NCBI GenBank assembly: GCA_919901915.1
Contig: CAKKQB010000013.1
Location: forward strand, 64,192-128,191
DNA: 64,000 bases
Source of the DNA: Omnitrophica bacterium GWA2_41_15
Lineage (GTDB): Bacteria > Omnitrophota > Gorgyraeia > Gygaellales > Profunditerraquicolaceae
Reading direction: 5' to 3'
Positions within the stretch are counted from its first letter, which is position 1; every line of letters begins with the position of its first letter. Position numbers and translations under genes: made by a program. The notes below the pieces were generated by a model that saw only the letters and a list, made by a program, of their open reading frames with translations, made no database searches and was not told the origin of the DNA. Below are positions 23,214 through 62,380 of the stretch, piece by piece.

Positions 23214-23227
23214 TTTGTGCTATTTAC

Positions 23228-28764: not shown

Positions 28765-28766
28765 TT

Positions 28767-29117
28767 TTAAACGAAATTTTCTTGAACCAACATCTCCTTT
28801 ATTCGCGTCAGAATACGCAGGTAATCAAGCCGATCTTTTTCTGAAATCTTGCTAAAAATTTTAATAATCATCTCTCGCCGCTGGACATTGATCTTCTTAA
28901 CCAGCTTCGTACCGCGCAAGCTAAGTTTTACTTTAATAATCCGCCTGTCTTTAGAATCATCCTGTCTTAAACAATATCCGCCCCTAACCAGCCTATCCAC
29001 AGTGCCGGTCATCGCGGCGGTAGTCACGCGCATAAAACGCGCCAAAGCGCTCATCTTAGATTCGCCTACACGGTTTAAAGACTCCAAAATCAAAATTGTC
29101 AAGGAGTAACTACTCAA
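28767..29117 (-). CDS. MarR family regulator, apparently N-terminally short
   Basis: 116 aa with a TTG start. The wHTH is present (MSALARFMRVTTAAMTGTVDRLVRGGY...DRRIIKVKLSLRG), but about 30 aa of the usual N-terminal helix are missing. A terminator abuts the start. Confidence 0.7.
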   Translation of the reverse strand: MSSYSLTILILESLNRVGESKMSALARFMRVTTAAMTGTVDRLVRGGYCLRQDDSKDRRIIKVKLSLRGTKLVKKINVQRREMIIKIFSKISEKDRLDYLRILTRIKEMLVQENFV

Positions 29118-29118
29118 T

Positions 29119-29156
29119 AAAAAAAGCGCCTCTGCTTTCGCAGAGGCGCTTTTTTT
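29119..29156 (-). terminator. bidirectional rho-independent terminator
   Basis: aaaaaa-gcgcctctgc-tttc-gcagaggcgc-tttttt, a GC-rich stem flanked by A6 and T6. Confidence 0.75.
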
Positions 29157-29427
29157 GTAATAGTTCAGCTCTCGGAAGTACCCGTCGGTGTCATTGCGAG
29201 CCCGAAGGGCGAAGCAATCTCTTTAAAAAGATTGCTTCGTCGCTATCGCTCCTCGCAATGAGACTGCGTCATAATTCGGTTTTGGTGTCATTCCGGCGAA
29301 AGCCGGAATCCATTCTCCGGCAATAACACAACTCACTGGATTCCGGCTTTCGCCGGAATGACGAATTTTTAACGATTATGACACAGTCTGAATGACACAA
29401 GTACTTCCAAGAGCTGAACTATTACCT
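29155..29427. mobile_element. composite nested palindromic element with about 21-bp inverted ends TAGTTCAGCTCTYGGAAGTAC
   Basis: Ends at 29161-29181 and 29400-29420 with 1 mismatch. Inside are core III (29190-29262) and an inverted pair of core I hairpins (29287-29311, 29338-29362). Confidence 0.65.
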
Positions 29428-29466
29428 TTTTTTGTATTTCTTAAAACAGAAAACTCCTTAAGTCCA

Positions 29467-31110: not shown

Positions 31111-31291
31111 TTTAATTCTCCTTTTCTATTTGTTACACAATTTCTCTGCCTATAGCTTTGGCTATCGAAAGCCAAAGCTAAAAATTAAAAAGACACCTTA
31201 GAAAGTATTCAGAACGTCTTTGTTCTATACTTCTTTCGAAAAACCCAACCTGCTTCTTTGCAAGTTCCGGCTGTCTTAAATTATTGACAAA

Positions 31292-31319
31292 ATCTTAGCA
31301 CCGAAACAACTTTTGTCAA
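31292..31319 (-). promoter_or_regulatory. sigma70-type promoter (tttttcTTGACA-16-TAAGAT)
   Basis: Minus strand reads TTGACAaaagttgtttcggtgcTAAGAT, about 175 nt upstream of the 31110 start. Confidence 0.5.
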
Positions 31320-31402
31320 GAAAAATAAACACGAATTACCACGAATTTTCACCCCACACCAATACATTAGTAACCCGCTTTGTCGTATCGAGCGCTCTTT
31401 TT

Positions 31403-31468
31403 GGGCGAGCAAGCTCGCCCCTACGAATCGTCGTATACATCGCGTAGGGGTGGGCTTGCCCACCCTAT
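31403..31468. repeat. pair of GC-rich hairpins (GGGCGAGCAAGCTCGCCCCTACGA; GTAGGGGTGGGCTTGCCCACCCTAT)
   Basis: The first is repeated at 33208-33231 with the same T-rich 5' flank. Confidence 0.8.
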
Positions 31469-31527
31469 GTTGATTATTAAATTCGTAACTATGTTCACAA
31501 TAAATACAAAACAACGAAAATTTGCTA

Positions 31528-33322: not shown

Positions 33323-34750
33323 TTAGATAATCGGCAAATTATTTTCTTGCGTCAAATACTTATCCATAAAATCAGCGCAGCGCCTTCCTTCTGAAATGGC
33401 CCAAACAATTAAAGACTGACCGCGACGCATATCTCCACAAGAAAAAACGCCTCGCCGAGAAGTCAGAAAACTTTCTTTTAACAAGTTGTTTCTCTCTGGG
33501 GGCAAAAAACCCAAGGCTAAAATTACCAAATCCCCATCGAGTTCAAATTCGCTTCCGGAAATTTCTTCCATTACAGAATGGCCTGATTCATTCTTCTTGA
33601 ATTCAACCCGGCAGCAAGAAAGCTTTTTTACGTGTCCATTCTCACCAATAAACTTTTTTGTGGAAACCGACCAATCGCGAATTCCAGCTTCTTGGTGGCT
33701 GGTAGTAGCCTTAAGAAGCAGCGGATACTTTGGCCAGGGATAATCACGCGTGCGGGATTCAGCCGGCCGCGGCATAATTTCAATCTGGGTGACGCTCTTC
33801 GCGCCTTGCCTATGCGCGACGCCGATACAATCCGCGCCGGTATCCCCGCCGCCAATCACCACAACTTTTTTATCTTTAGCATCAATAAGTTCATCCGAAG
33901 AAAATTTTACGCCTTGCGCTCTTTTATTTGATTGAATCAAATAATCCATCGCGAAATATATGCCTTTTAATTCCCTTCCTTCTATCTTTTCAGCCGCAGG
34001 CTGATCCGCCTTCGGCGGAAGATCCCGAGGAATACGAGAACCGCAAGCTAAACAAATCGCGTCAAACTCTTTTCTTGAATAAGGCGCCTTTAAATCCATA
34101 CCCACATTTATGCCCGGCATAAATTTTATTCCTTCCTTTTTCAAAATTTCTAAGCGCCGATCCAAAATCCTTTTTTCTAATTTAAAATCCGGGATCCCAT
34201 AGCGAAGAATACCGCCAATTTTATCATCCCGCTCAAACACCACTACATTATGCCCCGCCTTGTTTAATTGATCCGCGCAAGATAAGCCCGCAGGGCCAGA
34301 ACCAATAATTGCCACTTTTTTTCCGGTGCGCCTCTTAGGCGGATTAGGCTTAATAAATCCATGTTTAAACGCGTACTCAATTATTGCCAACTCATTCTCT
34401 CTTGTAGTTACCGCCTCATCATTAATCTCTAAAACACAGGCATATTCGCAAAGAGCCGGACAAATTCTGCCGGTAATCTCCGGAAAATTATTAGTAGCCG
34501 AAAGCAGCAAATAAGCCTTTTCCCACTTGCCGCGAAATAACAAATCATTCCATTCCGGGATATAATTACTAATGGGACAGCCCCAAAGACAAAACGGCGT
34601 CCCACAATCCATGCAGCGCGAAGCCTGCTCCATAGAATGTTCGACTGCAGGTAATATGCCCACTTCGCGATAATCTTGGACGCGTTCACAAACAGGCCTG
34701 CATTTAGATACTTGCCTTTTAACTTTTAAGAAACCTTTAATATCACCCAT
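33323..34750 (-). CDS. gltD: glutamate synthase small subunit (NAD(P)H)
   Basis: 475 aa. Fe-S Cys motifs, GSGPAGL and GGGDTG dinucleotide folds. 8-nt overlap with gltB. Confidence 0.9.
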   Translation of the reverse strand: MGDIKGFLKVKRQVSKCRPVCERVQDYREVGILPAVEHSMEQASRCMDCGTPFCLWGCPISNYIPEWNDLLFRGKWEKAYLLLSATNNFPEITGRICPALCEYACVLEINDEAVTTRENELAIIEYAFKHGFIKPNPPKRRTGKKVAIIGSGPAGLSCADQLNKAGHNVVVFERDDKIGGILRYGIPDFKLEKRILDRRLEILKKEGIKFMPGINVGMDLKAPYSRKEFDAICLACGSRIPRDLPPKADQPAAEKIEGRELKGIYFAMDYLIQSNKRAQGVKFSSDELIDAKDKKVVVIGGGDTGADCIGVAHRQGAKSVTQIEIMPRPAESRTRDYPWPKYPLLLKATTSHQEAGIRDWSVSTKKFIGENGHVKKLSCCRVEFKKNESGHSVMEEISGSEFELDGDLVILALGFLPPERNNLLKESFLTSRRGVFSCGDMRRGQSLIVWAISEGRRCADFMDKYLTQENNLPII

Positions 34751-37700
34751 CTGATGCCTCCACCAACTCTATTTTCTCTTCTGTTTTTCTGCCTCCTAAT
34801 ACACGTTTATATTCAATGGGCATAACTTTTACAAATTTTTTTAATTCAGGAGTAAAATTATCTAAGATATTTTTCGCGCTGGAACTGCGCGTATAATGAT
34901 AGTGATTAGAAAGCAACTTCTCGATTGTTCGCGCGTCTTCTTCGGCCACGGCCTCAAGTATTACCATTTCCATATTGCACTTATTCTTAAAATCTCCGTC
35001 CTTATCCCAAACATAGGCGATACCGCCTGACATACCCGCGGCAAAATTTCTTCCGGTTCTGCCGATAACCACAACTCTGCCTCCGGTCATATATTCGCAA
35101 GCGTGATCTCCTACGCCCTCAACCACCGCGTAAAGGCCGGAATTCCTGATACAAAATCTCTCACCGGCAATCCCGCGGATATAGGCAGAGCCTAAAATTG
35201 CTCCGTAAAAAGTAGTATTGCCAATAATAATATTTTCTTCTACTTTGTAATTTGATTGCCTATCCGGATAGATGATAATTTTCCCTCCGGACATACCTTT
35301 ACCTACATAATCATTCGTCAGGCCTTCTAACTCAAGAGTAACTCCTTTGGCAAGCCAAGCGCCAAAACTTTGACCTGCCACACCCTTAAATTTAAAGTGT
35401 ATCGTATTCGCGGGTAAACCATCCTCCCCAAAAATACGACAAACTTCGCCGCTTAACATCGTGCCGACACTACGATTATGATTTCTAATGGATAGCTCTA
35501 TTTTAATTGGCTTCCTATTTTCCAAGGCGCCCCGAGCCAATTCGATAAGTTTTCTATCTAGAATATTGTCAATTCCGTAATCCTGTTTATAAGGAGCCAA
35601 ACCACTGCCCTCTGGCTTGCGGCTCGGGCTATGGGAAGCCCGACCATTGCCCTTTGGCTGATATAAAATCCGGGAAAAATCTATTTTCTTTGCTTTCCAG
35701 GGAAGAATCTTGCTATTTACTTCCAACAAATCAGCGCGGCCAATCAGATCATCTATTTTAACAATACCTAAACTACTCATAATCTGACGCAATTCCTGGG
35801 CAATGAAACGAAAATAATTTTCTACATATTCCGGCTTCCCGCTAAAGCGTTTCTCTAAAAGTTCATCCTGCGTAGCCACGCCAAGAGAACAGTTATTTAA
35901 GTGGCAATGTCTAAGCATAACACATCCCAAAACAACTAAGACTGAAGTACAAAATCCAAACTCCTCCGCGCCCAAAAGCGCGGCCACAGCCACATCCCTG
36001 CCGGTGCGCATTCCTCCGTCAACCTGAAGCCTCACCCTGCTTCTTAAATCATTTAAAACCAGGGTCTGATGTGTTTCGGCAATACCTAATTCCCAGGGAA
36101 GCCCGGCATGCTTAATGGAACTTAAGGGGGATGCCCCGGTGCCGCCATCTCCGCCGGAAATCAAAATCATATCCGCGTGCCCCTTAGCCACTCCCGTGGC
36201 AATAGTTCCTACTCCAATTTCAGAAACAAGTTTTACACTAACGCGCGCGCGCGGATTAACATTTTTTAAATCAAAAATTAGCTGGGCTAAATCTTCAATA
36301 GAATAAATATCATGATGCGGCGGCGGAGAAATCAAAGTTACGCCGGGAGTTGTATAACGAATCTTAGCGATAGCCGCGCTTACTTTGTGGCCGGGAAGCT
36401 GGCCGCCTTCCCCGGGCTTAGCGCCTTGCGCGATTTTAATCTGCAATTCATCAGCATTTACTAAGTAATTCGTAATAACGCCAAAACGCCCGGAAGCAAC
36501 CTGCTTTATAGCGCTGCGCTTAGAATCTCCGTTTGGGAACGCGACAAAACGCGCTGGATCCTCTCCTCCTTCGCCGGTATTAGACCTACCCCCCAATCTA
36601 TTCATCGCGATAGCTATTGTTTCATGGCAAGCCTTACTAATTGAGCCAAAACTCATCGCGCCGGTAACAAAACGCCGGACGATTTCGCTAACCGGCTCTA
36701 CTTCTTCAATGGGAATAGGCTTAACTTCTTTAAATTTAAAAAGGCTTCTTAAAGTAGCAGGATTACTTGATTGATCATTAATGAGTTTCGCAAACTCCTG
36801 GTATTTTTTAGAATCATTATTTCTTACCGCACCCTGCAAAGCGGCAATACTATCCGGATTCCAAAGATGAAATTCACCGTCTTTCTTCCACTGATACAGG
36901 CCGCCAGTTGCTAAAAATGGCCTTTGTAAACCATCGACCGCGAATGCCTCTTTGTGCCTTAGAAGCGCTTCCTTCTCAATAATTCCTAAATCAATACCTC
37001 CAATACGGGAAACTGTTCCGGTGAAATATTTATCAATTACCTCTGAACTTAGGCCCAATGCCTCGAATATCTGCGCGCCCCGATAACTTTGTAAAGTAGA
37101 AATTCCCATTCTTGAGAGTATCTTTAGAATGCCTTTATCCACTGCCTTAATATAATGCTTTATCGCGGACTCTAAATCTAAGTCAACTTCCTTATCTCTA
37201 ATTAAAAAGGCGGCCGCTTCATAGGCAAGATACGGATTAATACAATCCGCGCCATACCCAAACAAGAGCGCGAAATGATGCACCTCGCGCGGAGAAGCGC
37301 TTTGAACAATAATACTTACCTGGGTACGCAGCGCCTTTCTTACCAAATCCTGATGCACACAAGCCGTTGCCAATAACGCGCTAAGGCAGGCCTTATCTTT
37401 ATTTATACCCTGATCACTTAAAATAACAAAAGTAAAACCCTCTTTTATCGCGGCTTCTGTTTCTTTGCAAATCCTGTCTAATGCTTTTTTAAAATTGTTT
37501 TTTTCTGAAATATTAAACAGAAGAGAAATTGTTTTTGTTTTAAAACCGTTCTTTTTTATATCGTGAATCTTTTTCAGATCTTCATTTGTCAAAATAGGAT
37601 TTTTTACTAATAACTTATGGCAATGCCGCGGCTGCTCATCCAAAATATTTTTTTGCGGCCCTAAATACGTATCAAGGCTCATCACCAGCTCTTCCCTGAT

Positions 37701-39386
37701 TGGGTCAATTGCCGGATTAGTAACCTGCGCGAATAACTGTTTAAAATAACTATAAAGCAACTGCGGCTTATCAGATAAAACCGCATGCGGGGTATCATTA
37801 CCCATTGAGCCATTCGGTTCATGAGAATCTTCCACCATAGGTTTAATGATAAATTTAAAATCCTCGCGGGTGTAACCGAAAGCTTTGAATAGAGTTAACG
37901 GATCTACTTTATTAGCGGATAGCGGATAGCTTTTATTAGCGTAGAGCGTAGAGCGTAAAGCGTAGAGCGTTTTGCTTTTCCTATCCGCTATACGCTCTAC
38001 GCTATCCGCTGATAATTTATCCAACTCTAACATATTTTTTTTAAGCCATTCTCCATACGGCTTAGAGCTTGCCATTGTTTCTTTTATTTCCTTATCTTCA
38101 ATTATGCGGCCTTCTTCTGTATCAACAAAAAGCATCTTTCCCGGTTCAAGCCTTCCTGAGATAGAAATATCATCCGGCGCGATATCTAAAACCCCTGCCT
38201 CTGAAGCCATAACTACCAAATTCTTTTTGGTCACAATATAGCGGCTAGGCCTTAAACCATTTCTGTCTAAAACCGCGCCAATCCTTACGCCATCAGTAAA
38301 GGCAATGGCTGCCGGTCCATCCCAGGACTCAATAAGACAAGTGTGGTATTTATAAAAATCTCTTACATTTTGACTCAAAAGATTATTCTGCTCCCAAGCG
38401 CTGGGTATTAACATCATCATCGCGTGAGACAAAGATCTACCCGATAAAACTAAAAGTTCAAAAACATTATCAATAGCCGCGGAATCGCTTCCCCCGGGAA
38501 CAATCACCGGAAAAATTTCCTTTAAATCCTTACCAAATAATTTACTTTTTAGTAAACCTTGGCGGGCAGTCATCCAATTTATATTCCCTTTTAAGGTATT
38601 TATCTCTCCATTATGCGCCAAGAACCGAAAAGGCTGCGCCAGATCCCAAGTGGGAAAAGTATTGGTACTATAACGGGAATGCACTAAACAAATCGCGCTT
38701 TGAAGAGCGCTGTCTTTTAAATCCAAAAAGAATTTCTCCAACTGCTCAGGCATAAGCAGGCCTTTATAAGAAAGCGTGCGGCAAGAAAGATTAGTAATAT
38801 AAAAAAATGATTTTTGTTTTAAGAATAAAGAGCGGATTTCGTTTTCTATTTTCTTGCGGATAATATAAAGCCTGCGCTCAAAATCAAGGCCATCCTTACC
38901 TATACTTAGACCTTTACCTTTACCTATAAAAACCTGCTCAATCACCGGTTGAGTAAGCTTTGCGGTTTTGCCAATCGCGGAATTATCAACCGGGACAATC
39001 CGCCAACCAAGCAAGGCCTGGCCCTCTTCTTTAATAATTCTAGCAAAGATACCCTTACATAACGCGCGCTCTTTTTTGTTAGTGGGAAGAAATACCATGC
39101 CTATCCCATAATCGCCAGAGGACGGTAAAATAAAATTTTCCTTCGCGCAGGCTTTTGCCAAAAATTCATGTGGCGCCTGAATAAGTATGCCTGCGCCATC
39201 CCCGGTCTCTGGGTCGGCGCCAGTTGCCCCGCGATGAGAAAGACGGCCTAAAACCTCCATGCCCTGTTTAATAATTTCATAAGATTTTTTGCCTTTGACA
39301 TCGCAAACAAATCCTACGCCGCAGGAATCATGTTCAAAACGGGAATCATACAACCCGTATTTTTCTAATTTCTGACGATTATCCAT
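34743..39386 (-). CDS. gltB: glutamate synthase large subunit
   Basis: 1547 aa. Ntn Cys (DSCGVGF), central domain, FMN domain and GXGXG domain. Contains two repeat-derived inserts. Confidence 0.95.
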   Translation of the reverse strand: MDNRQKLEKYGLYDSRFEHDSCGVGFVCDVKGKKSYEIIKQGMEVLGRLSHRGATGADPETGDGAGILIQAPHEFLAKACAKENFILPSSGDYGIGMVFLPTNKKERALCKGIFARIIKEEGQALLGWRIVPVDNSAIGKTAKLTQPVIEQVFIGKGKGLSIGKDGLDFERRLYIIRKKIENEIRSLFLKQKSFFYITNLSCRTLSYKGLLMPEQLEKFFLDLKDSALQSAICLVHSRYSTNTFPTWDLAQPFRFLAHNGEINTLKGNINWMTARQGLLKSKLFGKDLKEIFPVIVPGGSDSAAIDNVFELLVLSGRSLSHAMMMLIPSAWEQNNLLSQNVRDFYKYHTCLIESWDGPAAIAFTDGVRIGAVLDRNGLRPSRYIVTKKNLVVMASEAGVLDIAPDDISISGRLEPGKMLFVDTEEGRIIEDKEIKETMASSKPYGEWLKKNMLELDKLSADSVERIADRKSKTLYALRSTLYANKSYPLSANKVDPLTLFKAFGYTREDFKFIIKPMVEDSHEPNGSMGNDTPHAVLSDKPQLLYSYFKQLFAQVTNPAIDPIREELVMSLDTYLGPQKNILDEQPRHCHKLLVKNPILTNEDLKKIHDIKKNGFKTKTISLLFNISEKNNFKKALDRICKETEAAIKEGFTFVILSDQGINKDKACLSALLATACVHQDLVRKALRTQVSIIVQSASPREVHHFALLFGYGADCINPYLAYEAAAFLIRDKEVDLDLESAIKHYIKAVDKGILKILSRMGISTLQSYRGAQIFEALGLSSEVIDKYFTGTVSRIGGIDLGIIEKEALLRHKEAFAVDGLQRPFLATGGLYQWKKDGEFHLWNPDSIAALQGAVRNNDSKKYQEFAKLINDQSSNPATLRSLFKFKEVKPIPIEEVEPVSEIVRRFVTGAMSFGSISKACHETIAIAMNRLGGRSNTGEGGEDPARFVAFPNGDSKRSAIKQVASGRFGVITNYLVNADELQIKIAQGAKPGEGGQLPGHKVSAAIAKIRYTTPGVTLISPPPHHDIYSIEDLAQLIFDLKNVNPRARVSVKLVSEIGVGTIATGVAKGHADMILISGGDGGTGASPLSSIKHAGLPWELGIAETHQTLVLNDLRSRVRLQVDGGMRTGRDVAVAALLGAEEFGFCTSVLVVLGCVMLRHCHLNNCSLGVATQDELLEKRFSGKPEYVENYFRFIAQELRQIMSSLGIVKIDDLIGRADLLEVNSKILPWKAKKIDFSRILYQPKGNGRASHSPSRKPEGSGLAPYKQDYGIDNILDRKLIELARGALENRKPIKIELSIRNHNRSVGTMLSGEVCRIFGEDGLPANTIHFKFKGVAGQSFGAWLAKGVTLELEGLTNDYVGKGMSGGKIIIYPDRQSNYKVEENIIIGNTTFYGAILGSAYIRGIAGERFCIRNSGLYAVVEGVGDHACEYMTGGRVVVIGRTGRNFAAGMSGGIAYVWDKDGDFKNKCNMEMVILEAVAEEDARTIEKLLSNHYHYTRSSSAKNILDNFTPELKKFVKVMPIEYKRVLGGRKTEEKIELVEASDG
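35597..35658. repeat. E-type palindromic element inside gltB (in frame, linker between FMN and C-terminal domains)
   Basis: ccaaaccactgccctctggcttgcggctcgggctatgggaagcccgaccattgccctttggc encodes QPKGNGRASHSPSRKPEGSGL. Confidence 0.7.
37911..38010. repeat. A-type heptamer-array hairpin inside gltB (in frame)
   Basis: attagcggatagcggatagc...tagcgtagagcgtagagcgtaaagcgtagagcg-loop-ctatccgctatacgctctacgctatccgct encodes SADSVERIADRKSKTLYALRSTLYANKSYPLSAN. Confidence 0.85.
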
Positions 39387-39389
39387 ATT

Positions 39390-39558
39390 TTTAGCGTATA
39401 GCGTATAGCGTAGAGCGTAGAGCGTATAGCGTATAGCGTAGAACGTAGAGCGTAGAGCGGATAGCGGATAGTAAAAATCTATGTTTTAACTATATGTTAT
39501 CCGCTATTCCTACACGCTTTCTTTCCTATCCGCTAAACGCTATACGCTCTACGCTAAT
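39390..39558. repeat. A-type heptamer-array hairpin, largest copy (left arm about 11 units)
   Basis: tagcgtatagcgtatagcgtagagcgtagagcgtatagcgtatagcgtagaacgtagagcgtagagcggatagcggatag, then a loop, then a degenerate complementary arm. Confidence 0.85.
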
Positions 39559-39589
39559 ATAAAATACCTCATAGACCTACGAGGCATAT

Positions 39590-43023: not shown

Positions 43024-43083
43024 TTTATCCTTTCTTTGCCTAAAAAAGTAACTTCCCTTAATAAGCTGAAGACGTCCCTGTCC

Positions 43084-43121
43084 TTAAAAACAAGAAGCCC
43101 CAAAACATTTTGGGGCTTCTT
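43084..43121 (-). terminator. intrinsic-terminator-like hairpin + U tract located inside the predicted leader of the Rh-type channel gene
   Basis: Minus strand reads aagaagccccaaaatgttttggggcttctt followed by gttttt. Confidence 0.6.
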
Positions 43122-43147
43122 TGCCTTTGACTTAATTGTCAATTAAG

Positions 43148-43175
43148 ATCATAGCATATTTCATATTCTTGTCAA
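43148..43175 (-). promoter_or_regulatory. sigma70-type promoter (tttttcTTGACA-16-TATGAT) upstream of the Rh-type channel gene
   Basis: Minus strand reads TTGACAagaatatgaaatatgcTATGAT, followed by palindrome cttaattgacaattaag. Confidence 0.5.
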
Positions 43176-43201
43176 GAAAAAAAATGCAAGGGGAGGGGAA
43201 T

Positions 43202-44635: not shown

Positions 44636-44659
44636 CCTCTTATTTTTAATGTTTTAGTA

Positions 44660-44732
44660 TTTAGCGGATAGCGTATAGCGTATATATAGGTTTTACTATC
44701 CGCTATACGCTCTACGCTATACGCTATACGCT
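44660..44732. repeat. A-type heptamer-array hairpin
   Basis: tttagcggatagcgtatagcgtata-loop-tatccgctatacgctctacgctatacgctatacgct. The right arm contains the nfnA stop. Confidence 0.85.
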
Positions 44733-45569
44733 TGATATTTTAAGATTACAGATATGCTTTTCTTTATCTAAATAAACACTGTTCCTCTTTGTCAATTCAT
44801 CCCAATTTACTTGAGTTCCGTCAAATTCCGGGCCATCAACGCAAGCAAATTTCGTCTTACCTGCCACAGTTACACGGCAACAGCCGCACATTCCAGTAGC
44901 ATCTACCATCAAAGGATTCAAAGAAACAATGGTTTTAACTTTAAAATCGCTAGCAACCTCGCAAACTCTTCTCATCATCGGTATCGGGCCGACTGCGTAA
45001 ATTAGCGAATAGCGGATAGCGGATAGTGAATAGCTTAATACCTCCTGCAAAATATCAGTAACAAAGCCTTTCCTGCCGCAAGAACCGTCATCAGTGGTTA
45101 TATAAAGCTCATCGCAAAACACCTTTAGCTCCTGCTCCAAAATCAATAAATCATTGTTTCTTGCGCCCAGTATAGTAGTAGTATGGTTTCCCGCTTCTTT
45201 CAAAGCCTTGGCAACCGGATAAATCTCCGCAATTCCTACGCCTCCGCCTACAAGAATTAAATTTCCAAAATTTTTAATCTCAGTAGCATGCCCCAGGGGC
45301 CCGGCCAAAGCGTATAATGAATCACCAACCTCCATCTTGCCCAGCAACTTAGTAGTTAAGCCAACCTCTTGAAAGATCAAGGTAATTGTGCCTATGTCAG
45401 AATTTTTATCTACTATAGTTAGAGGTATCCTTTCGCCTTCCTCGCATACCATAAGAACAACAAATTGGCCCGGTCTTACTTTCCTGGCAATAAGCGGGCT
45501 TAAGATTTCAAAGCGCTTAATTGTTACGTCTTGCGTTTGTGCTAAAATTTCTTTTTTGATTATCCGCAT
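44724..45569 (-). CDS. nfnA: NfnA/SudB-like FAD/NAD-binding ferredoxin-reductase-type subunit (PyrK family)
   Basis: 281 aa. Has RPGQFV, GGGVGIA and a C-terminal 2Fe-2S Cys cluster (GMCGCCRV...CVDGPEF). Confidence 0.75.
   Translation of the reverse strand: MRIIKKEILAQTQDVTIKRFEILSPLIARKVRPGQFVVLMVCEEGERIPLTIVDKNSDIGTITLIFQEVGLTTKLLGKMEVGDSLYALAGPLGHATEIKNFGNLILVGGGVGIAEIYPVAKALKEAGNHTTTILGARNNDLLILEQELKVFCDELYITTDDGSCGRKGFVTDILQEVLSYSLSAIRYSLIYAVGPIPMMRRVCEVASDFKVKTIVSLNPLMVDATGMCGCCRVTVAGKTKFACVDGPEFDGTQVNWDELTKRNSVYLDKEKHICNLKISSV
45001..45035. repeat. A-type heptamer array (single arm) inside nfnA, in frame
   Basis: agcgaatagcggatagcggatagtgaatagc encodes SYSLSAIRYSLIY. Confidence 0.7.
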
Positions 45570-45740: not shown

Positions 45741-46478
45741 TTACTTTACATCACTGTAATCATTCTTATTTTTTAATTCGGCAGTTAAAATAATTGCTTC
45801 GGCGATTTCGCGCATGGACTTACGTTTATCCATACTCTGTTTTTGAATTAATCTGTAGGCCTCGGATGGTTTTACATCTGCCTCCTGGGAAAGTATATCC
45901 TTTGCCCGTTCAATCAGCTTGCGGGTAACTAAGGCTTCTTCAGCGCTATGCGCCCGCAAAGATAATTCAGCATTTTCAATGGCCATAGCCGTCTGATTGG
46001 CCAAAGTTGTAAGAAGACTTATCTCGGATTTTGTAAACTTATGTCTTTTTGAGGTATAACAATTAAGCACGCCGATTACTGTCCCTCTTACTGCCAAAGG
46101 GACACTAGCCAAAGAACAAAGCCCTTCTTTTTTAGCGATGTCCCTATTTAAGTAATCCGCGTCTTCCCTGACATCCAAAACAACCATTGATTTATTATCC
46201 CGCGCAACCGCTCCCGCAATCCCCTCTCCTAATTTTATATTGGGTTTTTTATTGTAGCTTTGAGAAATAGACTGGGTCGCGCGTACAACTAATTCTTTCC
46301 TCTCGGAATCAAGAAGCATCAAAGAAGAGATTTTTAAATTCATCACCTGGGCAGTAACCTCAACAACTAAACGAAGAAGCTCGTCCAGATACAAGCCTGA
46401 AGTAATCAGGTTCGCGACCTTAGAAATCGCCTCAATCTGCTTTGTATAAACCTGATAACCCTTTACCTTTTTAATCAT
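45741..46478 (-). CDS. GAF + ANTAR domain RNA-binding antitermination regulator
   Basis: 245 aa. A GAF domain, then an ANTAR-like C-terminus (LVTRKLIERAKDILSQEADVKPSEAYRLIQKQSMDKRKSMREIAEAII). Confidence 0.85.
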   Translation of the reverse strand: MIKKVKGYQVYTKQIEAISKVANLITSGLYLDELLRLVVEVTAQVMNLKISSLMLLDSERKELVVRATQSISQSYNKKPNIKLGEGIAGAVARDNKSMVVLDVREDADYLNRDIAKKEGLCSLASVPLAVRGTVIGVLNCYTSKRHKFTKSEISLLTTLANQTAMAIENAELSLRAHSAEEALVTRKLIERAKDILSQEADVKPSEAYRLIQKQSMDKRKSMREIAEAIILTAELKNKNDYSDVK

Positions 46479-47642: not shown

Positions 47643-47649
47643 CGTTTTC

Positions 47650-47716
47650 AGCGTTTAGCGGATAGCGTTTAGCGTATAGTTTTTTTTATCCGCTATACGC
47701 TCTACGCTATACGCTA
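47650..47716. repeat. A-type heptamer-array hairpin
   Basis: cagcgtttagcggatagcgtttagcgtatag-ttttttt-tatccgctatacgctctacgctatacgcta. Confidence 0.85.
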
Positions 47717-48202
47717 TTAATACGATATAGCTATCCTCTTATTCTCTTCCCTGTGCTTCAAAATCACTCCATCTTCCTTATATTTTTTTAATAAAAAGTG
47801 CGTGACTATGCCGCGGATATTCTCGAGGCAAGAAAGTTTCTCCGCTACAAATTGTGAAACTTTTTGTAAATTCTTGCCCTCAACTATAACCAAAAGGTCA
47901 TACGTGCCGGAAATCAAGCAACAGTCAGTTACCTCCGGAAACGAATAAATACGCTCAGCAATTTTATCAAAACCAATATCCTTTTGCGGAGCAATATTAA
48001 CCTCTATCAAAGCCCTGACGGAAGGCTCTTCGGTTTTAATTAAATCCTTATTTATTACTGTTTTATATTTTAAAATTATCCCCTCTTTTTCATACTTTTT
48101 TATCGCCTCTTTTATTGCCTCCGGCTTTTTCTTTAACATTTTCGCGATCTCTTCCGGAGTTACAAGCGCGTTCTTTTCTAATATCTCTAATATTTCGTCC
48201 AT
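47717..48202 (-). CDS. Lrp/AsnC family transcriptional regulator
   Basis: 161 aa. An HTH, then a RAM/AsnC_trans_reg domain. Confidence 0.85.
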   Translation of the reverse strand: MDEILEILEKNALVTPEEIAKMLKKKPEAIKEAIKKYEKEGIILKYKTVINKDLIKTEEPSVRALIEVNIAPQKDIGFDKIAERIYSFPEVTDCCLISGTYDLLVIVEGKNLQKVSQFVAEKLSCLENIRGIVTHFLLKKYKEDGVILKHREENKRIAISY

Positions 48203-51773: not shown

Positions 51774-51823
51774 TCGTAAATATTATGAAGTAATTATCGT
51801 AAATATTTAATAGACAACCTGAT

Positions 51824-51987
51824 AACGAAAGTTCCTGTTTGCGCACGAAATTTTTTGCCATGCGCTACGGTTTACTCCTCGTTTCCGCAGTGACTTACCA
51901 AAAAAAACAAGTGCTCCAACTCGTCGTAAATCCTTGCGCACATTTGGCAAAAAAATTTCTAATTGTGCGCAAACAGGAACTTTCGTT
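51824..51987. mobile_element. 164-bp MITE-like element with perfect 23-bp terminal inverted repeats
   Basis: AACGAAAGTTCCTGTTTGCGCAC (51824-51846) and GTGCGCAAACAGGAACTTTCGTT (51965-51987). Further imperfect internal complementarity. Confidence 0.7.
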
Positions 51988-51991
51988 GAGT

Positions 51992-52164
51992 CTGTTGCGA
52001 AATGCCATTTTTCGTCATTCCGGCGAAAGCCGGAATCCAGAACTCTTTGATTTCAATAGGCTTATGGATACCGGCGACCGAGGGCGAAATGCCCGAGGAA
52101 GTGTCAGAGCCCAACTGGGCTCGACCTTTCGCCGGTATGACGGTTTTAATGTATTTCGCAACAG
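51992..52164. mobile_element. MITE-like element, copy 2 (173 bp)
   Basis: Collinear with 8025-8197, differing by a few substitutions. It starts 4 nt after the 51824-51987 element. Confidence 0.75.
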
Positions 52165-52280
52165 TCCCTCGTTATCTGACAACCATCATTTTTTATCACA
52201 TTATTTACGAAAGAACCATAATTTTCCATATAAATTAAAAAAAATGCTATAATTTAGATTCTTTCGTATTTAAAATAATC

Positions 52281-52310
52281 CGTAGGGGCGGTTCGTGAAC
52301 CGCCCTTACG
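52281..52310. repeat. GC-rich hairpin CGTAGGGGCGGTTCGTGAACCGCCCTTACG
   Basis: Related copy at 59738-59761 (GTAGGGGCGGTTCGCGAACCGCCC). Confidence 0.8.
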
Positions 52311-52353
52311 ACGAAACATAAATCATTGAAACGGTTGATTGGCGCGTTTAATA

Positions 52354-53642: not shown

Positions 53643-53700
53643 ATTAGCGCGGATAGCGTTTAATTTTTTCTATACGCTATACGCTCTACGCTATACGCTA
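53643..53700. repeat. A-type heptamer-array hairpin
   Basis: ttagcgcggatagcgttta-atttttt-ctatacgctatacgctctacgctatacgcta. Confidence 0.85.
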
Positions 53701-53710
53701 AAACTTTTAT

Positions 53711-56068: not shown

Positions 56069-56160
56069 TTTTTTTCTCCCTATCGTATTACATTTGACAC
56101 TATCATATTACACGTATTGTCAAAAGTATTTAGTTAATTCTTTTATATCTGCTGGCTCTT

Positions 56161-56218
56161 GTCATTCCGGCGAAAGCCGGAATCCAGTCTTCTGGACCCC
56201 GGCTTTCGCCGGGGTGAC
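56161..56218. repeat. core I hairpin + GACCCCGGCTTTCGCCGGGGTGAC hairpin in the nrdJ leader
   Basis: Same module pair as 6123-6215. Confidence 0.8.
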
Positions 56219-56238
56219 ATCTTAAATTTTCTATAATA

Positions 56239-56267
56239 AGTATAACCTATACAAAAATTTTTGTCAA
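56239..56267 (-). promoter_or_regulatory. sigma70-type promoter (tttttcTTGACA-17-TATACT) for nrdJ
   Basis: Minus strand reads TTGACAaaaatttttgtataggtTATACT. Confidence 0.5.
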
Positions 56268-56274
56268 GAAAAAA

Positions 56275-56320
56275 ACACAATCTATAGTATTATATTAAAT
56301 TAAGTATACAATATGCTGTA
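56275..56320. promoter_or_regulatory. candidate tandem NrdR boxes
   Basis: 56275-56290 read on the minus strand gives ATACTATAGATTGTGT, matching 14 of 16 positions of the remembered consensus acaCwAtATaTwGtgt. 56305-56320 (atacaatatgctgtat) matches 12 of 16. Centres are 30 bp apart. Confidence 0.4.
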
Positions 56321-56338
56321 TTTTACCTCGAGTGGGGT

Positions 56339-57367: not shown

Positions 57368-57381
57368 TCATTAAATCACAA

Positions 57382-57456
57382 ATATACACGAATTTTTTAA
57401 CACGGATTTTCACGGATCTATCCGTGCCCATCCGTATCTTATTTATTCGTGTATAT
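57382..57456. repeat. nested inverted repeat with CACGGAT/ATCCGTG core (B-type) and ATATACACGAAT/ATTCGTGTATAT outer arms
   Basis: cacggattttcacggatctatccgtgcccatccgta, flanked by the outer arms. Confidence 0.75.
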
Positions 57457-57462
57457 CAAGTG

Positions 57463-59591: not shown

Positions 59592-59644
59592 CTAGCGCAC
59601 CATAAGTATAATTTTTATAAAATTTTCGTACCCGCCATTAACTA

Positions 59645-59673
59645 TTTATACTACTAAAAATAGGGCAAGTCAA
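59645..59673 (-). promoter_or_regulatory. sigma70-type promoter (tttttcTTGACT-17-TATAAA) for the ROK gene
   Basis: Minus strand reads TTGACTtgccctatttttagtagTATAAA. Confidence 0.45.
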
Positions 59674-59775
59674 GAAAAATCGTAGAGATTATTTCGTGTT
59701 TAAGGTAATAAACGTAGATTAAATATAAAAGATATTTGTAGGGGCGGTTCGCGAACCGCCCAAATAATAGAATTA

Positions 59776-61116
59776 TTAATGAAATTTTTTCTTGGCTTTT
59801 TTTGAGATACACAAGGCGGGATTTTTCCAAAACTCTTTGAGCGTATAATAAGCTTTGCGGGGAGAGCGTTTATTCAACCTTTGTCCTGCCGGGTCTTTAC
59901 TGCCTAATAAGGCATCCTCAGGCTCTTGCGACAATGCCACAATACCAAACCACTCTTCATTCATATTTTTATTGCCTTCTACCTTTATATCAAAATAATA
60001 GTTTCCGTTAGACCAATTCGAACCAGTATCATGCTCGAGCCACGTATCAGAGGCATGCTCATCATACTTCCACCATTCATCTGACCACTCAAAAATAACG
60101 CCGCCTAAACAATTGCCCGCGCCTTTCTTATTACCCGCCAGATTCCCATAAATCTGACACCATTGAGATTCCAGGAAAAATGCCTGCATATCCTGATCTT
60201 CCTTTTTTAAATAGGCATCATAACAATCAGCACCAATTTCTACCAAAAGAATTGGCTTGTCAAAAGTTAATTTTAAAGATTTAAAAAGGTTTCCAAAGGT
60301 CTTACCTCTATAGATAATGCAAGCAATCAAATCTACGTCAGGACAATATTCCTTCGCGTATTCCAACCCTGTCAACTCGCCATTCCCCAATGCCACAGGA
60401 TGTTGAGGGTCGAGTTCATGGACAGCTTTCGTCAAATCATTTACATAAGAATAATAAATCCTGGAACGTATGGCTCCTTGTTTCTGGGGATCTGGTTCTT
60501 TTTCTGCTTCTTCGCAGGCCCAAGGATTAACACGGCCTAAACAAGAATAGTTATTTTCATTGCCCATAATCCACATAAGCAATCCGGGCTCGTCCTTATA
60601 TAAGCTGACCATATCCAGGACATCTTTCTTTATTCTTTCCTGAAAACCCTTATCTCCATAGAATGGGCCGGGATACTCCCAAAAAGATAACCAATGGCCT
60701 AAAATTGTGCGTATTCCGTAAAGCTGATAAAGCTCGCTAATTACTTTTTTTACCGCTTCTGGATTATCTCCCGGCTGATAAATTCTTATGGTATTAACCC
60801 CCATCTCATGCATCAGTTTTCCGTCTACAATCCAAGGTTTATTGGGGTCAGACCACCAGTCATATTCGTGATTCTTACCAATAGGAACAGGATTATAACA
60901 AACCCCTTTTACGATGTAAGGTTTTTTATCTACTATCAACTGGTAGTAATTATTTTTAAGTTTTTTAATATAAACTCCGGGCTTTGGCTTTGAGGCCATA
61001 CCCATTAAAAACAGAACACAGAGCACAGAAAACAGAGAACAGAATATTTTTCTCTGTGCTCTGCGCTCTGTTCTCTGTGCTCTATTTTCCGTTCTCTTAT
61101 TCATACTTAATTTCAT
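59776..61116 (-). CDS. clan GH-A (beta/alpha)8 glycoside hydrolase (GH2/GH72-like motifs), paralogue 1
   Basis: 446 aa. Has VKGVCYNP, GVNTIRIY, WIMGNENNY (acid/base) and LLVEIG (nucleophile region). The N-terminal 40 aa are encoded by repeat 61007-61095. Confidence 0.7.
   Translation of the reverse strand: MKLSMNKRTENRAQRTERRAQRKIFCSLFSVLCVLFLMGMASKPKPGVYIKKLKNNYYQLIVDKKPYIVKGVCYNPVPIGKNHEYDWWSDPNKPWIVDGKLMHEMGVNTIRIYQPGDNPEAVKKVISELYQLYGIRTILGHWLSFWEYPGPFYGDKGFQERIKKDVLDMVSLYKDEPGLLMWIMGNENNYSCLGRVNPWACEEAEKEPDPQKQGAIRSRIYYSYVNDLTKAVHELDPQHPVALGNGELTGLEYAKEYCPDVDLIACIIYRGKTFGNLFKSLKLTFDKPILLVEIGADCYDAYLKKEDQDMQAFFLESQWCQIYGNLAGNKKGAGNCLGGVIFEWSDEWWKYDEHASDTWLEHDTGSNWSNGNYYFDIKVEGNKNMNEEWFGIVALSQEPEDALLGSKDPAGQRLNKRSPRKAYYTLKEFWKNPALCISKKAKKKFH
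61007..61095. repeat. C-type heptamer-array hairpin (CAGAGMA)n / (TKCTCTG)n inside the 5' end of the hydrolase ORF
   Basis: acagaacacagagcacagaaaacagagaacagaa-tattttt-ctctgtgctctgcgctctgttctctgtgctc. Confidence 0.8.
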
Positions 61117-62290
61117 CTAAATAAAATGTTACTCCTTGCGGATTATTGTCAAGATTAGCCGCCCAGCAGAAACCACCGATAATATAGGACATATCCTTGC
61201 CCTTTAAATCAATAGAATACTGTGTCCATTCTTTGTTCAGGATAACCGGGCCAATATTAGCTGAATCAGAATCAGAATATTCCCCCATTATTCCGCCAAC
61301 CTTAAATTCCTCGATACGCTCTCCTCCATTTTCTCCGTGCGCCCAAAAGGATAATTTAACAGCCTTGGACAGATCATAACCCGCGTCTATTGTTCCCCAG
61401 TTATTAGCCGGCTCCTGCCAAAACATCCCCGCCCAACGACTGCCTTGAGAAGCCTTATTACCATAAATAATTTTAATACAAGTATCTCCTAAATAAGGGT
61501 TCTCCTTCGACGTTCCATTAAATTTCAAATCACTGTAATCACCCATCCAACCCGAAGAAATAAAGTGGTTTATGGAAGACCTATCAGCATAAACATAGAA
61601 AGGCATCTCCTTTTGTTTTTTGCCTTCCGGTTTCATAGCTGAATCAACCTCAAACTTTATATCGTCAATAAAAAATTTGGCTCCTTCGAGATTCAAATCA
61701 GCGGTAGTAATCCACGAGAAACCACCGCTTACACAAGATAAGTCTTTCCCCGCAAGATTAATTGTATATTGCTTCCATACATCAGTAAGTTCGATCGGCC
61801 CCATTTGCGCGTCTACTGAATCTGGATATGTATTTTTTGGCTCAATACCAATTCCGCCGACCTTTACCTTCTCTATCACTTCCCCGCCTTTAGCGCCTCT
61901 TGCCCAAAAAGTTAACTTAGTCATCCCGGTTAAATCATACCCGCCTTTTTTGCTTCCCCAATTATTAGCCGGATTCTGCCAATAAACACCTACCCATTCC
62001 TTGCCTTGCGATCTCTTGGCGGTATATTCAAATTCAATGCAAGTACTTCCTGAATGAGGGTCTTCCGTAGACTGATCATTCATCTTAACATCGCCATAAT
62101 CACCCATCCATCCGGAAGGGGCATAATGATTTTCACGGCTATTTCTATCCGCGTAAACCACGAATTCCTTAGTGCCCGCGACACTCTCAACAACTTGAGT
62201 TGTTTCTCCGGTTTCCCCTGCTTCCTGCGCCATTACGCAAAAAGGCAACGCCAAAATCGCTGCTACTAACACCACTAACAACTTCTTCAT
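61097..62290 (-). CDS. secreted protein with two tandem carbohydrate-binding-module-like domains
   Basis: 397 aa with a signal peptide. Internal duplication: YADRNSRENHYAPSGWMGDYGDVKMN...YWQNPANNWG versus YADRSSINHFISSGWMGDYSDLKFN...FWQEPANNWG. Confidence 0.65.
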   Translation of the reverse strand: MKKLLVVLVAAILALPFCVMAQEAGETGETTQVVESVAGTKEFVVYADRNSRENHYAPSGWMGDYGDVKMNDQSTEDPHSGSTCIEFEYTAKRSQGKEWVGVYWQNPANNWGSKKGGYDLTGMTKLTFWARGAKGGEVIEKVKVGGIGIEPKNTYPDSVDAQMGPIELTDVWKQYTINLAGKDLSCVSGGFSWITTADLNLEGAKFFIDDIKFEVDSAMKPEGKKQKEMPFYVYADRSSINHFISSGWMGDYSDLKFNGTSKENPYLGDTCIKIIYGNKASQGSRWAGMFWQEPANNWGTIDAGYDLSKAVKLSFWAHGENGGERIEEFKVGGIMGEYSDSDSANIGPVILNKEWTQYSIDLKGKDMSYIIGGFCWAANLDNNPQGVTFYLDEIKYE

Positions 62291-62307
62291 TTTACCCCTC
62301 CCATTTT

Positions 62308-62379
62308 TCGTATTACGTGATGCGTGACGCGTATCGCGTTAAAATTTTCGCAATACGCACAACGCACGACGCAATACGA
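62308..62379. repeat. D-type heptamer hairpin (CGTNNNN units)
   Basis: tcgtatta cgtgatg cgtgacg cgtatcg cg-ttaaaatttt-cg caatacg cacaacg cacgacg caatacga. The arms are only partly complementary. Confidence 0.65.
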
Positions 62380-62380
62380 A

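What the first reader, a model, noticed from the sequence alone, without database searches (positions are those of the whole stretch)
62308..62379. Third heptamer-periodic hairpin type (CGTNNNN) directly after a stop codon
Between the second hydrolase (stop at 62381) and the binding-protein gene lie four 7-nt units beginning CGT (CGTATTA CGTGATG CGTGACG CGTATCG). An AT loop follows, then four units ending ACG.

The arms are only partly complementary, so what is conserved is the 7-nt periodicity rather than the sequence. Together with the A and C types, this suggests a common generating mechanism: 7-nt slippage, or a protein that reads a 7-nt register. A single mobile sequence family explains it less well.
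Basis: partly seen in the sequence, partly recalled or inferred. Interest (0 to 1): 0.5.

Follow-up and report, generated by a model that had tools for sequence, protein, structure and literature searches.

The report
Heptad-built RNA hairpin between operon genes
A 74-base hairpin made of 7-base steps fills the gap between two genes of a sugar-use operon in an uncultured Omnitrophota bacterium. It probably works as a structure in the messenger RNA and is one example of a lineage-wide habit of building sequence in 7-base units.

Summary
Window 62307..62380 holds four CGTNNNN units, an A/T loop, then four NNNNACG units. It starts 0 nt after the stop codon of a glycoside-hydrolase gene and ends 4 nt before the Shine-Dalgarno site of the next gene.

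All genes lie on the minus strand. On that sense strand, 30 of 32 arm positions pair once G-U is allowed (-41.1 kcal/mol, against -32.4 for the antisense).

The only orthologue is in an Omnitrophota MAG whose neighbouring protein is 80% identical. It keeps a 4+4 heptad hairpin with 3 compensatory and 6 one-sided pair-keeping changes and no broken pair. The sense bias there is larger (-37.6 against -21.9).

The hairpin has no U tract, no Rfam match and no second copy.

The 7-nt periodicity is hugely enriched:
- 304 windows per 50 kb here, against 1 in E. coli and about 8 in shuffles.
- It recurs across 1.8 Mb of Omnitrophota DNA with 187 different unit sequences.
- Close relatives differ by clean 7-nt indels.

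Best reading: an old, degenerate product of heptad slippage, retained as an intercistronic mRNA stem-loop that acts as a stability or processing element and is a likely RNase III substrate. It is a new variant of known heptamer-repeat phenomena. Function is inferred, not shown.

The parts
62381..62383 (-). Stop codon (UAA) of the upstream glycoside-hydrolase gene. The gene is 777 aa on the full contig; only its C-terminal part lies in the window.
   Evidence: ORF list. Pfam Glyco_hydro_2_C, E = 2.7e-14. Full gene on L001 at 4693-7026.
62349..62380 (-). 5' arm of the sense-strand hairpin: UUCGUAU UGCGUCG UGCGUUG UGCGUAU UGCG (four heptads plus 4 nt).
   Evidence: RNA fold. Lag-7 identity 0.76.
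62339..62348 (-). Loop, AAAAUUUUAA.
   Evidence: RNA fold. The loop core AAUUUUAA is conserved in L003.
62307..62338 (-). 3' arm: CGCGAUA CGCGUCA CGCAUCA CGUAAUA CGAA.
   Evidence: RNA fold. Lag-7 identity 0.72. Pair table.
62295..62302 (-). Shine-Dalgarno sequence GGGAGGGG of the downstream gene. It lies 4 nt 3' of the stem and is unpaired in the minimum-free-energy structure.
   Evidence: Sequence. Fold. The same position holds GGAGG-type sites in 144 orthologous spacers.
61097..62290 (-). Downstream gene. It encodes a 397-aa secreted protein (MKKLLVVL... signal peptide) that is conserved across Omnitrophota.
   Evidence: ORF. 473 relatives in GTDB species genomes. 853 proteins with E <= 1e-100. 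No Pfam family.

Best explanation
The element is an intercistronic RNA stem-loop on the sense (minus) strand. It has 30 pairs, a 10-nt A/U loop and a free energy of -41 kcal/mol. It fills the 90-nt spacer between the hydrolase gene and the next gene.

The operon has six genes: sugar-binding protein, two permeases, hydrolase, a 397-aa protein and a 446-aa protein. The organism is an uncultured Candidatus Omnitrophota bacterium.

**Origin (inferred).** The arms grew in 7-nt steps by slipped-strand duplication. This is the dominant small-repeat process in this lineage. The units then diverged, which damps further slippage. Selection on the mRNA kept the two arms paired.

**Function (inferred, not shown).** The hairpin has no U tract, so it does not terminate transcription. 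It punctuates the polycistronic mRNA. It would act as a barrier to 3'->5' exonucleases that protects the upstream transporter/hydrolase segment. At about 30 bp of near-continuous duplex it is also a probable RNase III substrate, and cleavage there would separate the fates of the upstream and downstream segments.

The downstream Shine-Dalgarno site stays free, so translation of the 397-aa gene is not blocked.
For: **Shown**
- Position between a stop codon and a Shine-Dalgarno site.
- All genes are co-directional. The operon ends only after the 446-aa gene, at a GC hairpin with a T-rich tail followed by a promoter-like TTGACT/TATAAA pair.
- The sense RNA folds better than the antisense: -41.1 against -32.4 kcal/mol in the window and -37.6 against -21.9 in the orthologue L003.
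- G-U against A.C counts are 5:0 in the window and 5:1 in L003, mostly at different positions.
- The RNAalifold consensus has 24 pairs: 3 changed on both sides and kept, 6 changed on one side and kept, 0 broken.
- Both species have 4+4 heptads and the same AAUUUUAA loop core.
- There is no U tract and no terminator or promoter call at the site. Canonical terminators with U tracts do exist elsewhere on the contig (for example the spacers 28765-29466 and 43024-43201).
- The orthologous spacer in other Omnitrophota often carries some stable hairpin directly after the stop codon, heptadic or not.
- Slippage is supported by the lag-7 excess, by 187 different unit types and by 7-nt indels in L108, L115 and L126.

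**Precedent**
- The H. influenzae hmw 5'-UTR heptamer repeat forms a long hairpin that RNase III cuts, which changes expression (PMC12721329).
Against: - No transcript data exist, so the function is inferred.
- Covariation rests on only two species. No closer relative exists in the collections searched.
- The G-U excess could partly come from strand-biased C->T mutation. It could also reflect selection on single-stranded DNA of the same strand, and all genes here share one strand, so transcription and replication direction cannot be separated.
- The spacer is dispensable. Many relatives have only 13-25 nt there.
- Across 83 oriented heptad hairpins, the sense strand is favoured only weakly: 49 against 33, Wilcoxon p = 0.06.
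- Template-switch correction of quasi-palindromes could produce double changes without selection on the RNA.
Confidence: 0.5

Rival explanations
1. It is a neutral by-product. Heptad slippage plus intramolecular template switching at the DNA level built and keeps an inverted array, and it has no role in the RNA.
For: - The lineage-wide heptad excess uses arbitrary unit sequences.
- The spacer is dispensable in many relatives.
- There is no consistent strand bias across the class.
- Some arrays are direct repeats only and form no hairpin, for example L035, L086 and L154.
Against: - Six one-sided changes all keep a pair through G-U on the sense strand, and none breaks a pair. Template switching would restore Watson-Crick pairs, not G-U pairs.
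- The sense/antisense energy gap is 8.7 kcal/mol in the window and 15.7 kcal/mol in L003.
- The 4+4 architecture has stayed the same since the two species diverged to 80% protein identity.
Confidence: 0.2
2. It is a terminator or attenuator without a U tract that lowers read-through into the 397-aa and 446-aa genes.
For: It is a very stable stem placed directly after a stop codon. Hairpins of this kind recur after the same stop codon in relatives.
Against: - The 3' flank is AAAAAUGGGAGG, with no U run. The consensus scan finds nothing here.
- The same contig uses classical GC-stem terminators with U tracts.
- The downstream genes have no promoter-like site of their own in the spacer.
Confidence: 0.1
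3. It is an array of binding sites for a protein that reads single-stranded RNA or DNA in a 7-nt register, such as a cold-shock, S1 or KH-type protein. This was proposed for the TAACTGA repeats.
For: The strict 7-nt phase is kept in both species even though the unit sequence drifts. Candidate heptamer binders of this kind were proposed for Beggiatoaceae (PMC4679880).
Against: - The arms are almost fully paired, which would hide single-stranded sites.
- The 187 unit sequences in the lineage, and at least 7 unit types on this contig, argue against sequence-specific reading.
- Seven base pairs matches neither helical repeat.
Confidence: 0.08
4. It is a REP-like element. A single-stranded DNA hairpin would be recognised and spread by a RAYT (Y1/HUH) transposase.
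For: - It is an extragenic palindrome.
- The strand-specific G-T pairing would also suit a single-stranded DNA hairpin on the lagging-strand template.
- The contig carries true REP-like families, and 'type A' units contain GTAG.
Against: - It is single-copy in 69 kb and absent from about 1.75 Mb of related DNA.
- It has no GTAG or CGTC head at its ends.
- The DNA-level energy gap between strands is small, 3.8 kcal/mol.
- No Y1 transposase was found among ten small ORFs.
Confidence: 0.07

Closest known systems
Haemophilus influenzae hmw1A/hmw2A 5'-UTR heptamer repeat (ATCTTTC)n hairpin processed by RNase III (PMC12721329)
   Same: A 7-nt tandem repeat is transcribed just upstream of a gene for a secreted or surface protein. 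It forms a long hairpin rich in G-U pairs. The structure, not the sequence, carries the function.
   Different: - In hmw only the left arm is heptadic, and it is a perfect, hypervariable phase-variation tract of at least 11 units.
- Here both arms are heptadic, the units are degenerate, and the count (4+4) is the same in two species.
- Here the element is intercistronic, not a primary 5' UTR.
- RNase III cleavage has not been tested here.
REP/BIME elements in intercistronic spacers, for example E. coli malE-malF
   Same: Both are stable stem-loops in the spacer of a sugar ABC-transporter operon and lack a U tract. In E. coli they act as a barrier to 3' exonucleases and set the ratio between cistrons (established knowledge). 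The malE-malF spacer was folded for comparison (-74 kcal/mol over 153 nt).
   Different: REPs are high-copy, near-identical, GC-rich, carry a GTAG or CGTC tag and are tied to RAYT transposases (PMC3333891, PMC3733652). This hairpin is single-copy, has moderate GC content, is heptad-periodic, and its sequence is private to the locus.
Over-represented heptameric simple-sequence repeats: cyanobacterial STRR, Xanthomonas GGGAATC, Nostoc GGGGAYT (PMC4692102) and Beggiatoaceae TAACTGA (PMC4679880)
   Same: - There is an intergenic excess of tandem 7-nt units and of no other period.
- Length varies between relatives.
- Occasional inverted pairs can form stem-loops.
- Polymerase slippage has been proposed as the cause.
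   Different: - Those genomes use one or a few unit sequences, mostly as direct repeats.
- Here one 69-kb contig holds at least 7 unit types, and the lineage holds 187.
- Many arrays here are arranged as matched inverted arrays at cistron junctions, and some lie inside signal-peptide coding regions.
Phage T7 intercistronic RNase III processing signals (for example R1.1)
   Same: Both are long, imperfect hairpins between cistrons with small internal mismatches and no terminator tail. In T7 the cleavage leaves a protective 3' hairpin on the upstream mRNA (established knowledge).
   Different: There is no sequence relation, no heptad periodicity in T7, and cleavage has not been tested here.

Membership tests
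REP/BIME (RAYT-associated repetitive extragenic palindromes) | Many dispersed, near-identical copies in the genome | tested here: not met
   blastn of the 110-nt region against the contig and 160 related loci finds only itself and a weak match to the L003 orthologue. A regex for (KCGTNNK)x3 finds only this site and one unrelated array. Only 69 kb of this genome was available.
REP/BIME (RAYT-associated repetitive extragenic palindromes) | GTAG or CGTC tetranucleotide at one end of the palindrome | tested here: not met
   On the sense strand the stem ends are UUCGUAUU... and ...AAUACGAA. CGUC occurs only inside the stem.
REP/BIME (RAYT-associated repetitive extragenic palindromes) | A RAYT (Y1 transposase, PF01797) gene in the genome | tested here: inconclusive
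   None of ten small ORFs in the window matches a Y1 transposase. The other ORFs and the rest of the genome were not searched.
Intrinsic (Rho-independent) terminator | A GC-rich stem immediately followed by a U tract | tested here: not met
   The 3' flank is AAAAAUGGGAGG. The consensus scan reports no terminator at 62291-62380 on either strand.
Heptameric simple-sequence repeat / STRR-like array | Head-to-tail 7-nt units | tested here: met
   Lag-7 identity is 0.76 and 0.72 in the two arms, and 0.68 and 0.50 in L003. Shuffle p is <= 0.005 for all four arms. TRF reports a period-7 array at 62355-62373. The units are degenerate, about 70% alike.
Heptameric simple-sequence repeat / STRR-like array | Unit-length (7-nt) copy-number differences between relatives | tested here: not met
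   At this locus the window and L003 both have 4+4 heptads and differ by a 5-nt gap next to the loop. For the class as a whole the feature is met: two clean 7-nt indels separate L108, L115 and L126.
Heptameric simple-sequence repeat / STRR-like array | Genome-level excess of period 7 over other periods, enriched outside genes | tested here: met
   About 40% of period-7 windows lie in the 16% of sequence outside crude ORF calls.
RNase III processing hairpin | A double-stranded RNA stem of about two helical turns (>= 20 bp) in a transcript | tested here: met
   The stem has 30 pairs with two 1x1 mismatches on the sense strand. Transcription is inferred from the operon context, not observed.
RNase III processing hairpin | Cleavage by RNase III in vivo or in vitro | not testable with these tools
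   No transcript-end or enzymatic data are available.
Any curated Rfam RNA family | A score at or above the family's gathering threshold | tested here: not met
   The only gathering-level hit in the window is a tRNA. In the permissive scan of 60900-62500 the hairpin gets only miRNA-precursor-like scores of about 16 bits against thresholds of 70 and 171 bits.

The most novel reading that the evidence does not exclude
Omnitrophota may have a lineage-wide way of making functional sequence in situ by 7-nt slippage, which has not been described.

Matched inverted heptad arrays would be born locally at cistron junctions and serve as private RNA hairpins that punctuate operons, doing the job REPs do elsewhere but without a mobile element. 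The same process would write the charged and hydrophobic halves of signal peptides at gene 5' ends.

This hairpin would be an old, stabilised member. RNase III or transcription might feed back on repeat number, as reported for hmw in Haemophilus.
Probability: 0.25. Interest if true: 0.75.

Novelty: new variant of a known kind. Interest (0 to 1): 0.5.

Why it matters
If correct, operon-internal RNA hairpins can arise de novo by a simple mutational process, heptad slippage followed by compensatory drift, rather than by insertion of mobile REP-type elements.

Omnitrophota would then be a natural system for watching such elements at every stage, from perfect arrays to degenerate but still paired stems.

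It would also tie the long-noted but unexplained excess of heptameric repeats in bacteria to a concrete use in the mRNA.

For annotation, heptad arrays have a practical cost. They blur gene starts and can fuse ORFs in these genomes.

Tried and rejected
- **Rfam.** Neither the gathering scan nor the permissive scan found a family.
- **Terminator and promoter scan.** Nothing was reported at the site.
- **Search for other copies.** There are none, so a dispersed or mobile family was rejected for this type.
- **Search for closer relatives, to strengthen covariation.** The GTDB genome scan, the JGI metagenome scan and the 5.8-billion-protein search gave only one relative above 76% identity (L003/P0002). 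Covariation therefore rests on two species.
- **First automatic pairing of arrays.** It was too strict and missed this hairpin, so it was replaced.
- **Indel-length spectrum from blastn between 120 close locus pairs.** The result was too noisy inside the arrays to show a 7-nt peak. A hand-checked alignment of L108, L115 and L126 did show it.
- **RAYT search.** It was limited to ten small ORFs and found none.
- **Identity of the 397-aa protein.** There is no Pfam hit, no PDB relative, and only a sub-threshold choice-of-anchor-J match.
- **ANTAR target.** This idea was prompted by the GAF-ANTAR gene at 45741-46478. It was dismissed because the hairpin lacks the paired hexaloop architecture (own knowledge of ANTAR targets).

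Full report
**1. What is there**

The region lies between two minus-strand ORFs. The upstream ORF, 62381..63961, has its stop codon at 62381-62383. The downstream ORF, 61097..62290, starts at 62290.

There are four CGTNNNN units at 62309-62336, then an A/T-rich centre, then four NNNNACG units at 62351-62378.

Every ORF of 120 aa or more that looks like a gene in the window is on the minus strand. The biologically relevant strand is therefore the reverse complement:

UAA-UUCGUAU UGCGUCG UGCGUUG UGCGUAU UGCG-AAAAUUUUAA-CGCGAUA CGCGUCA CGCAUCA CGUAAUA CGAA-AAAU-GGGAGGGG-UAAA-AUG

**2. Is it more than chance?**

- As RNA the sense strand folds into one 30-pair hairpin of -41.1 kcal/mol. The z-score is -5.4, and 0 of 200 dinucleotide shuffles fold as well.
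- The antisense strand gives -32.4 kcal/mol with several internal loops.
- With DNA parameters the two strands give -23.7 and -19.9 kcal/mol.
- Pairing the arms position by position gives 25 Watson-Crick pairs, 5 G-U pairs, 0 A.C and 2 other mismatches in 32 positions.
- 'Only partly complementary' is therefore a result of reading the non-sense strand as DNA.
- The heptad phase is real. Lag-7 identity is 0.76 and 0.72 in the two arms, against 0.06-0.45 at all other lags. No shuffle out of 20000 reached it.

**3. Context**

- The exact downstream protein lies on a 95-kb ENA metagenome contig, which extends the window by 5.4 kb.
- A scan of GTDB species genomes returned 80 orthologous loci, nearly all named Candidatus Omnitrophota.
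- The gene order is PilZ, PilZ, then sugar-binding protein, two ABC permeases, a 777-aa glycoside hydrolase (GH2-like TIM barrel), this hairpin, a 397-aa secreted protein, a 446-aa protein, and then a ROK regulator.
- After the 446-aa gene come a GC-rich palindrome with a T-rich tail and a TTGACT...TATAAA promoter-like pair. The hairpin is therefore internal to a six-gene operon.
- The stem starts directly after the stop codon and ends 4 nt before the Shine-Dalgarno site, which stays unpaired.
- There is no U tract and no terminator or promoter call. Classical terminators with U tracts exist elsewhere on the contig.
- No Rfam family matches.

**4. Conservation**

- The sequence is unique. There is no second copy in the 69-kb contig or in about 1.75 Mb of related Omnitrophota DNA.
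- Only one orthologue exists, in MAG JASEHM01 (locus L003), whose neighbouring protein is 80% identical. Neither the JGI metagenomes nor the 5.8-billion-protein collection holds anything closer.
- L003 has a hairpin at the same place with 4+4 heptads and the same AAUUUUAA loop core.
- Its strand asymmetry is larger: -37.6 kcal/mol on the sense strand against -21.9 on the antisense.
- RNAalifold on the two sequences gives 24 consensus pairs. Three changed on both sides and remain paired (A-U to C-G, U-A to G-C, G-C to C-G). Six changed on one side and remain paired through G-U. None is broken (hand alignment).
- The G-U pairs of the two species are mostly at different positions, and A.C, which would be G-U on the other strand, occurs once in 61 positions.
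- This pattern is what selection on a single-stranded form of the sense strand would produce.
- It does not by itself separate RNA from single-stranded DNA of the same strand, nor fully exclude strand-biased C->T mutation.
- The much larger energy gap under RNA parameters than under DNA parameters, together with the operon position, favours RNA.

**5. The 7-nt periodicity is a property of the lineage**

- On this contig, 21-nt windows with at least 14 self-matches number 499 at lag 7 and 276 at lag 14. Every other lag from 2 to 15 gives 9-111.
- The first 50 kb holds 304 such windows. Fifty kb of E. coli K-12 holds 1, and mononucleotide shuffles hold about 8.
- The same excess appears in about half of 80 related species loci: 1615 windows at the stricter cut-off of at least 15 of 21, against at most 303 for any other period except 14.
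- About 40% of period-7 windows fall in the 16% of sequence outside crude ORF calls.
- The 441 arrays found use 187 different canonical units.
- Of 144 orthologous hydrolase-to-397-aa spacers, 43 carry a period-7 array. Unit sequences differ from species to species. Some are hairpins and some are direct repeats only.
- Spacer length ranges from 13 to 389 nt.
- Three near-identical spacers (L108, L115, L126) differ by two clean 7-nt indels. This shows directly that unit-length gain and loss occurs.
- The literature already records an unexplained over-representation of heptameric repeats in many bacteria, with polymerase slippage proposed as the cause, and occasional inverted pairs (PMC4692102). 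It also records TAACTGA arrays in Beggiatoaceae (PMC4679880).
- Full-text searches combining Omnitrophota with repeat, heptamer and hairpin terms returned no paper that mentions Omnitrophota; a second search on heptamer repeats and stem-loops also found nothing on this lineage.

**6. Interpretation**

- The process is best identified as heptad slippage.
- The alternative, a protein that reads a 7-nt register, is weakened by the diversity of units and by the arms being paired.
- I read it as an old heptad palindrome whose units have diverged. That would explain why its unit count is stable, unlike the perfect arrays. Selection on the mRNA would have retained it.
- Given its place and its lack of a U tract, the most likely action is punctuation of the operon mRNA. 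It would be a 3'-exonuclease barrier for the upstream segment, or an RNase III site, or both.
- This is comparable to REP hairpins in malE-malF, to T7 intercistronic signals, and most closely to the Haemophilus hmw 5'-UTR heptamer hairpin that RNase III cuts (PMC12721329).
- This step is inference. No transcript data were available.
- The class as a whole shows only a weak sense-strand bias: 49 against 33 hairpins, Wilcoxon p = 0.06. Not every heptad array need be functional.

**7. Relation to the other types**

- Two of the four sense heptads (UGCGUAU) differ at one base from the abundant 'type A' unit (AGCGUAU/G). Type A has 15 arms on this contig.
- The 'third type' may therefore be a diverged relative of type A rather than an independent invention. 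The L003 orthologue is less A-like, so this stays open.

**8. Verdict**

The feature is real and statistically solid. It is a new variant of known heptamer-repeat and intercistronic-hairpin phenomena, in a lineage where the phenomenon appears undescribed. On its own the single hairpin is of moderate interest. The lineage-wide pattern behind it is the more interesting lead.

Noticed in passing
window 61002-61096 (minus strand); L001 1542-1625; L001 4693-4815: Several heptad arrays lie inside the 5' ends of coding regions.

- The 'type C' hairpin reads in frame as NKRTENRAQRTERRAQRK-IFCSLFSVLCVLFLM. Its purine-rich 5' arm encodes a charged n-region, and its pyrimidine-rich 3' arm encodes the hydrophobic core of a signal peptide.
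- The sugar-binding protein's lipoprotein signal peptide is written by (TTCTGTT)x4.
- The hydrolase N-terminus is written by (CCGTCAG)x4 ... (ACCACTT)x4.
- In 151 orthologues of the 446-aa gene, most in-frame upstream peptides end in a hydrophobic segment, and in several species heptads encode it.

The true start codons were not determined.
   Followed up: partly
L092 1364-1477, L154 5140-5252, L087 3485-3603, L059 9004-9088 (junction between the 397-aa and 446-aa genes in relatives): Heptad hairpins at this junction show very large sense-strand bias, for example -66.2 against -22.4 kcal/mol in L092 and -61.3 against -28.3 in L154. The window's own type C hairpin gives -50.4 against -36.1.
   Followed up: partly
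L004, L008, L013, L024, L030, L083, L087, L109, L157 (spacer between the hydrolase and 397-aa genes): A conserved non-heptad hairpin, CCAATTCGCGCAATAACTTATG...CATAAGTTATGCGCTCATTGG, is followed by the motif GGAGGTAGAAAGGAGG. The motif also occurs alone in many other spacers. Both are absent from the window's genome. This could be an undescribed leader or structured RNA, or a duplicated ribosome-binding site.
   Followed up: no
window 18916-19038, 20103-20141, 37932-38014, 39384-39560, 44651-44743, 44996-45039, 47644-47723, 53658-53709: 'Type A' arrays, (AGCGTAK)n ... (MTACGCT)n, contribute 15 arms on the 69-kb contig, with unequal arms (for example about 4 against 11 units at 39384-39560).

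- The unit contains GTAG, the REP/RAYT tag.
- The same unit occurs once each in L024 and L028.
- Several arrays end directly at ...CGCTAAAAAT-ATG with no visible Shine-Dalgarno site.
   Followed up: partly
window 37913-38010, inside ORF 34743..39386: A type A hairpin sits inside a 1547-aa ORF call. Either the array is translated, or it has fused two genes because it lacks an in-frame stop codon.
   Followed up: no
window 14714-15598: TRF reports a perfect 464-bp tandem duplication (1.9 copies, 100% match). It covers two small genes with the N-terminal methylation (type IV pilin-like) motif. It could be a recent duplication or an assembly artefact.
   Followed up: no
window 8210-8255, 13986-14046, 14692-14734, 15178-15198, 57368-57462: A separate repeat family has a period of about 10 nt, CACGGATAAA / TTTATCCGTG, and occurs in short arrays in several spacers.
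   Followed up: no
window spacers 1-2401, 6086-6298, 7992-8255, 9981-10129, 22277-23513, 28765-29466, 31111-31527, 51774-52353, 56069-56338, 59592-59775: Several GC-rich REP-like palindrome families occur in these spacers:
- GTAGAGACG...CGTCTCTAC
- GTAGGGGCGAGCTTGCTCGCCC / GGGCGGTTCGCGAACCGCCC
- GTCATTCCGGCGAAAGCCGGAATCCAG
   Followed up: no
window 45741-46478: A GAF-ANTAR protein, an RNA-binding antiterminator type, is encoded among the type A hairpins. No link to the heptad hairpins was tested.
   Followed up: no
L008, L022, L030, L036, L064, L077: Some related species show a secondary excess of period-8 arrays, up to 84 windows in L064. The preferred slippage unit is therefore not strictly 7 nt in every genome.
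   Followed up: no
L040/L151, L057, L103, L157 (spacer between the hydrolase and 397-aa genes): Hairpins have 5' units GCATATR or ATCGCAW and 3' units CNATAAG. They would carry a regular A.A mismatch in every heptad and fold slightly better on the antisense strand, for example -29.8 against -33.7 kcal/mol in L103. The regular mismatch is unexplained.
   Followed up: no
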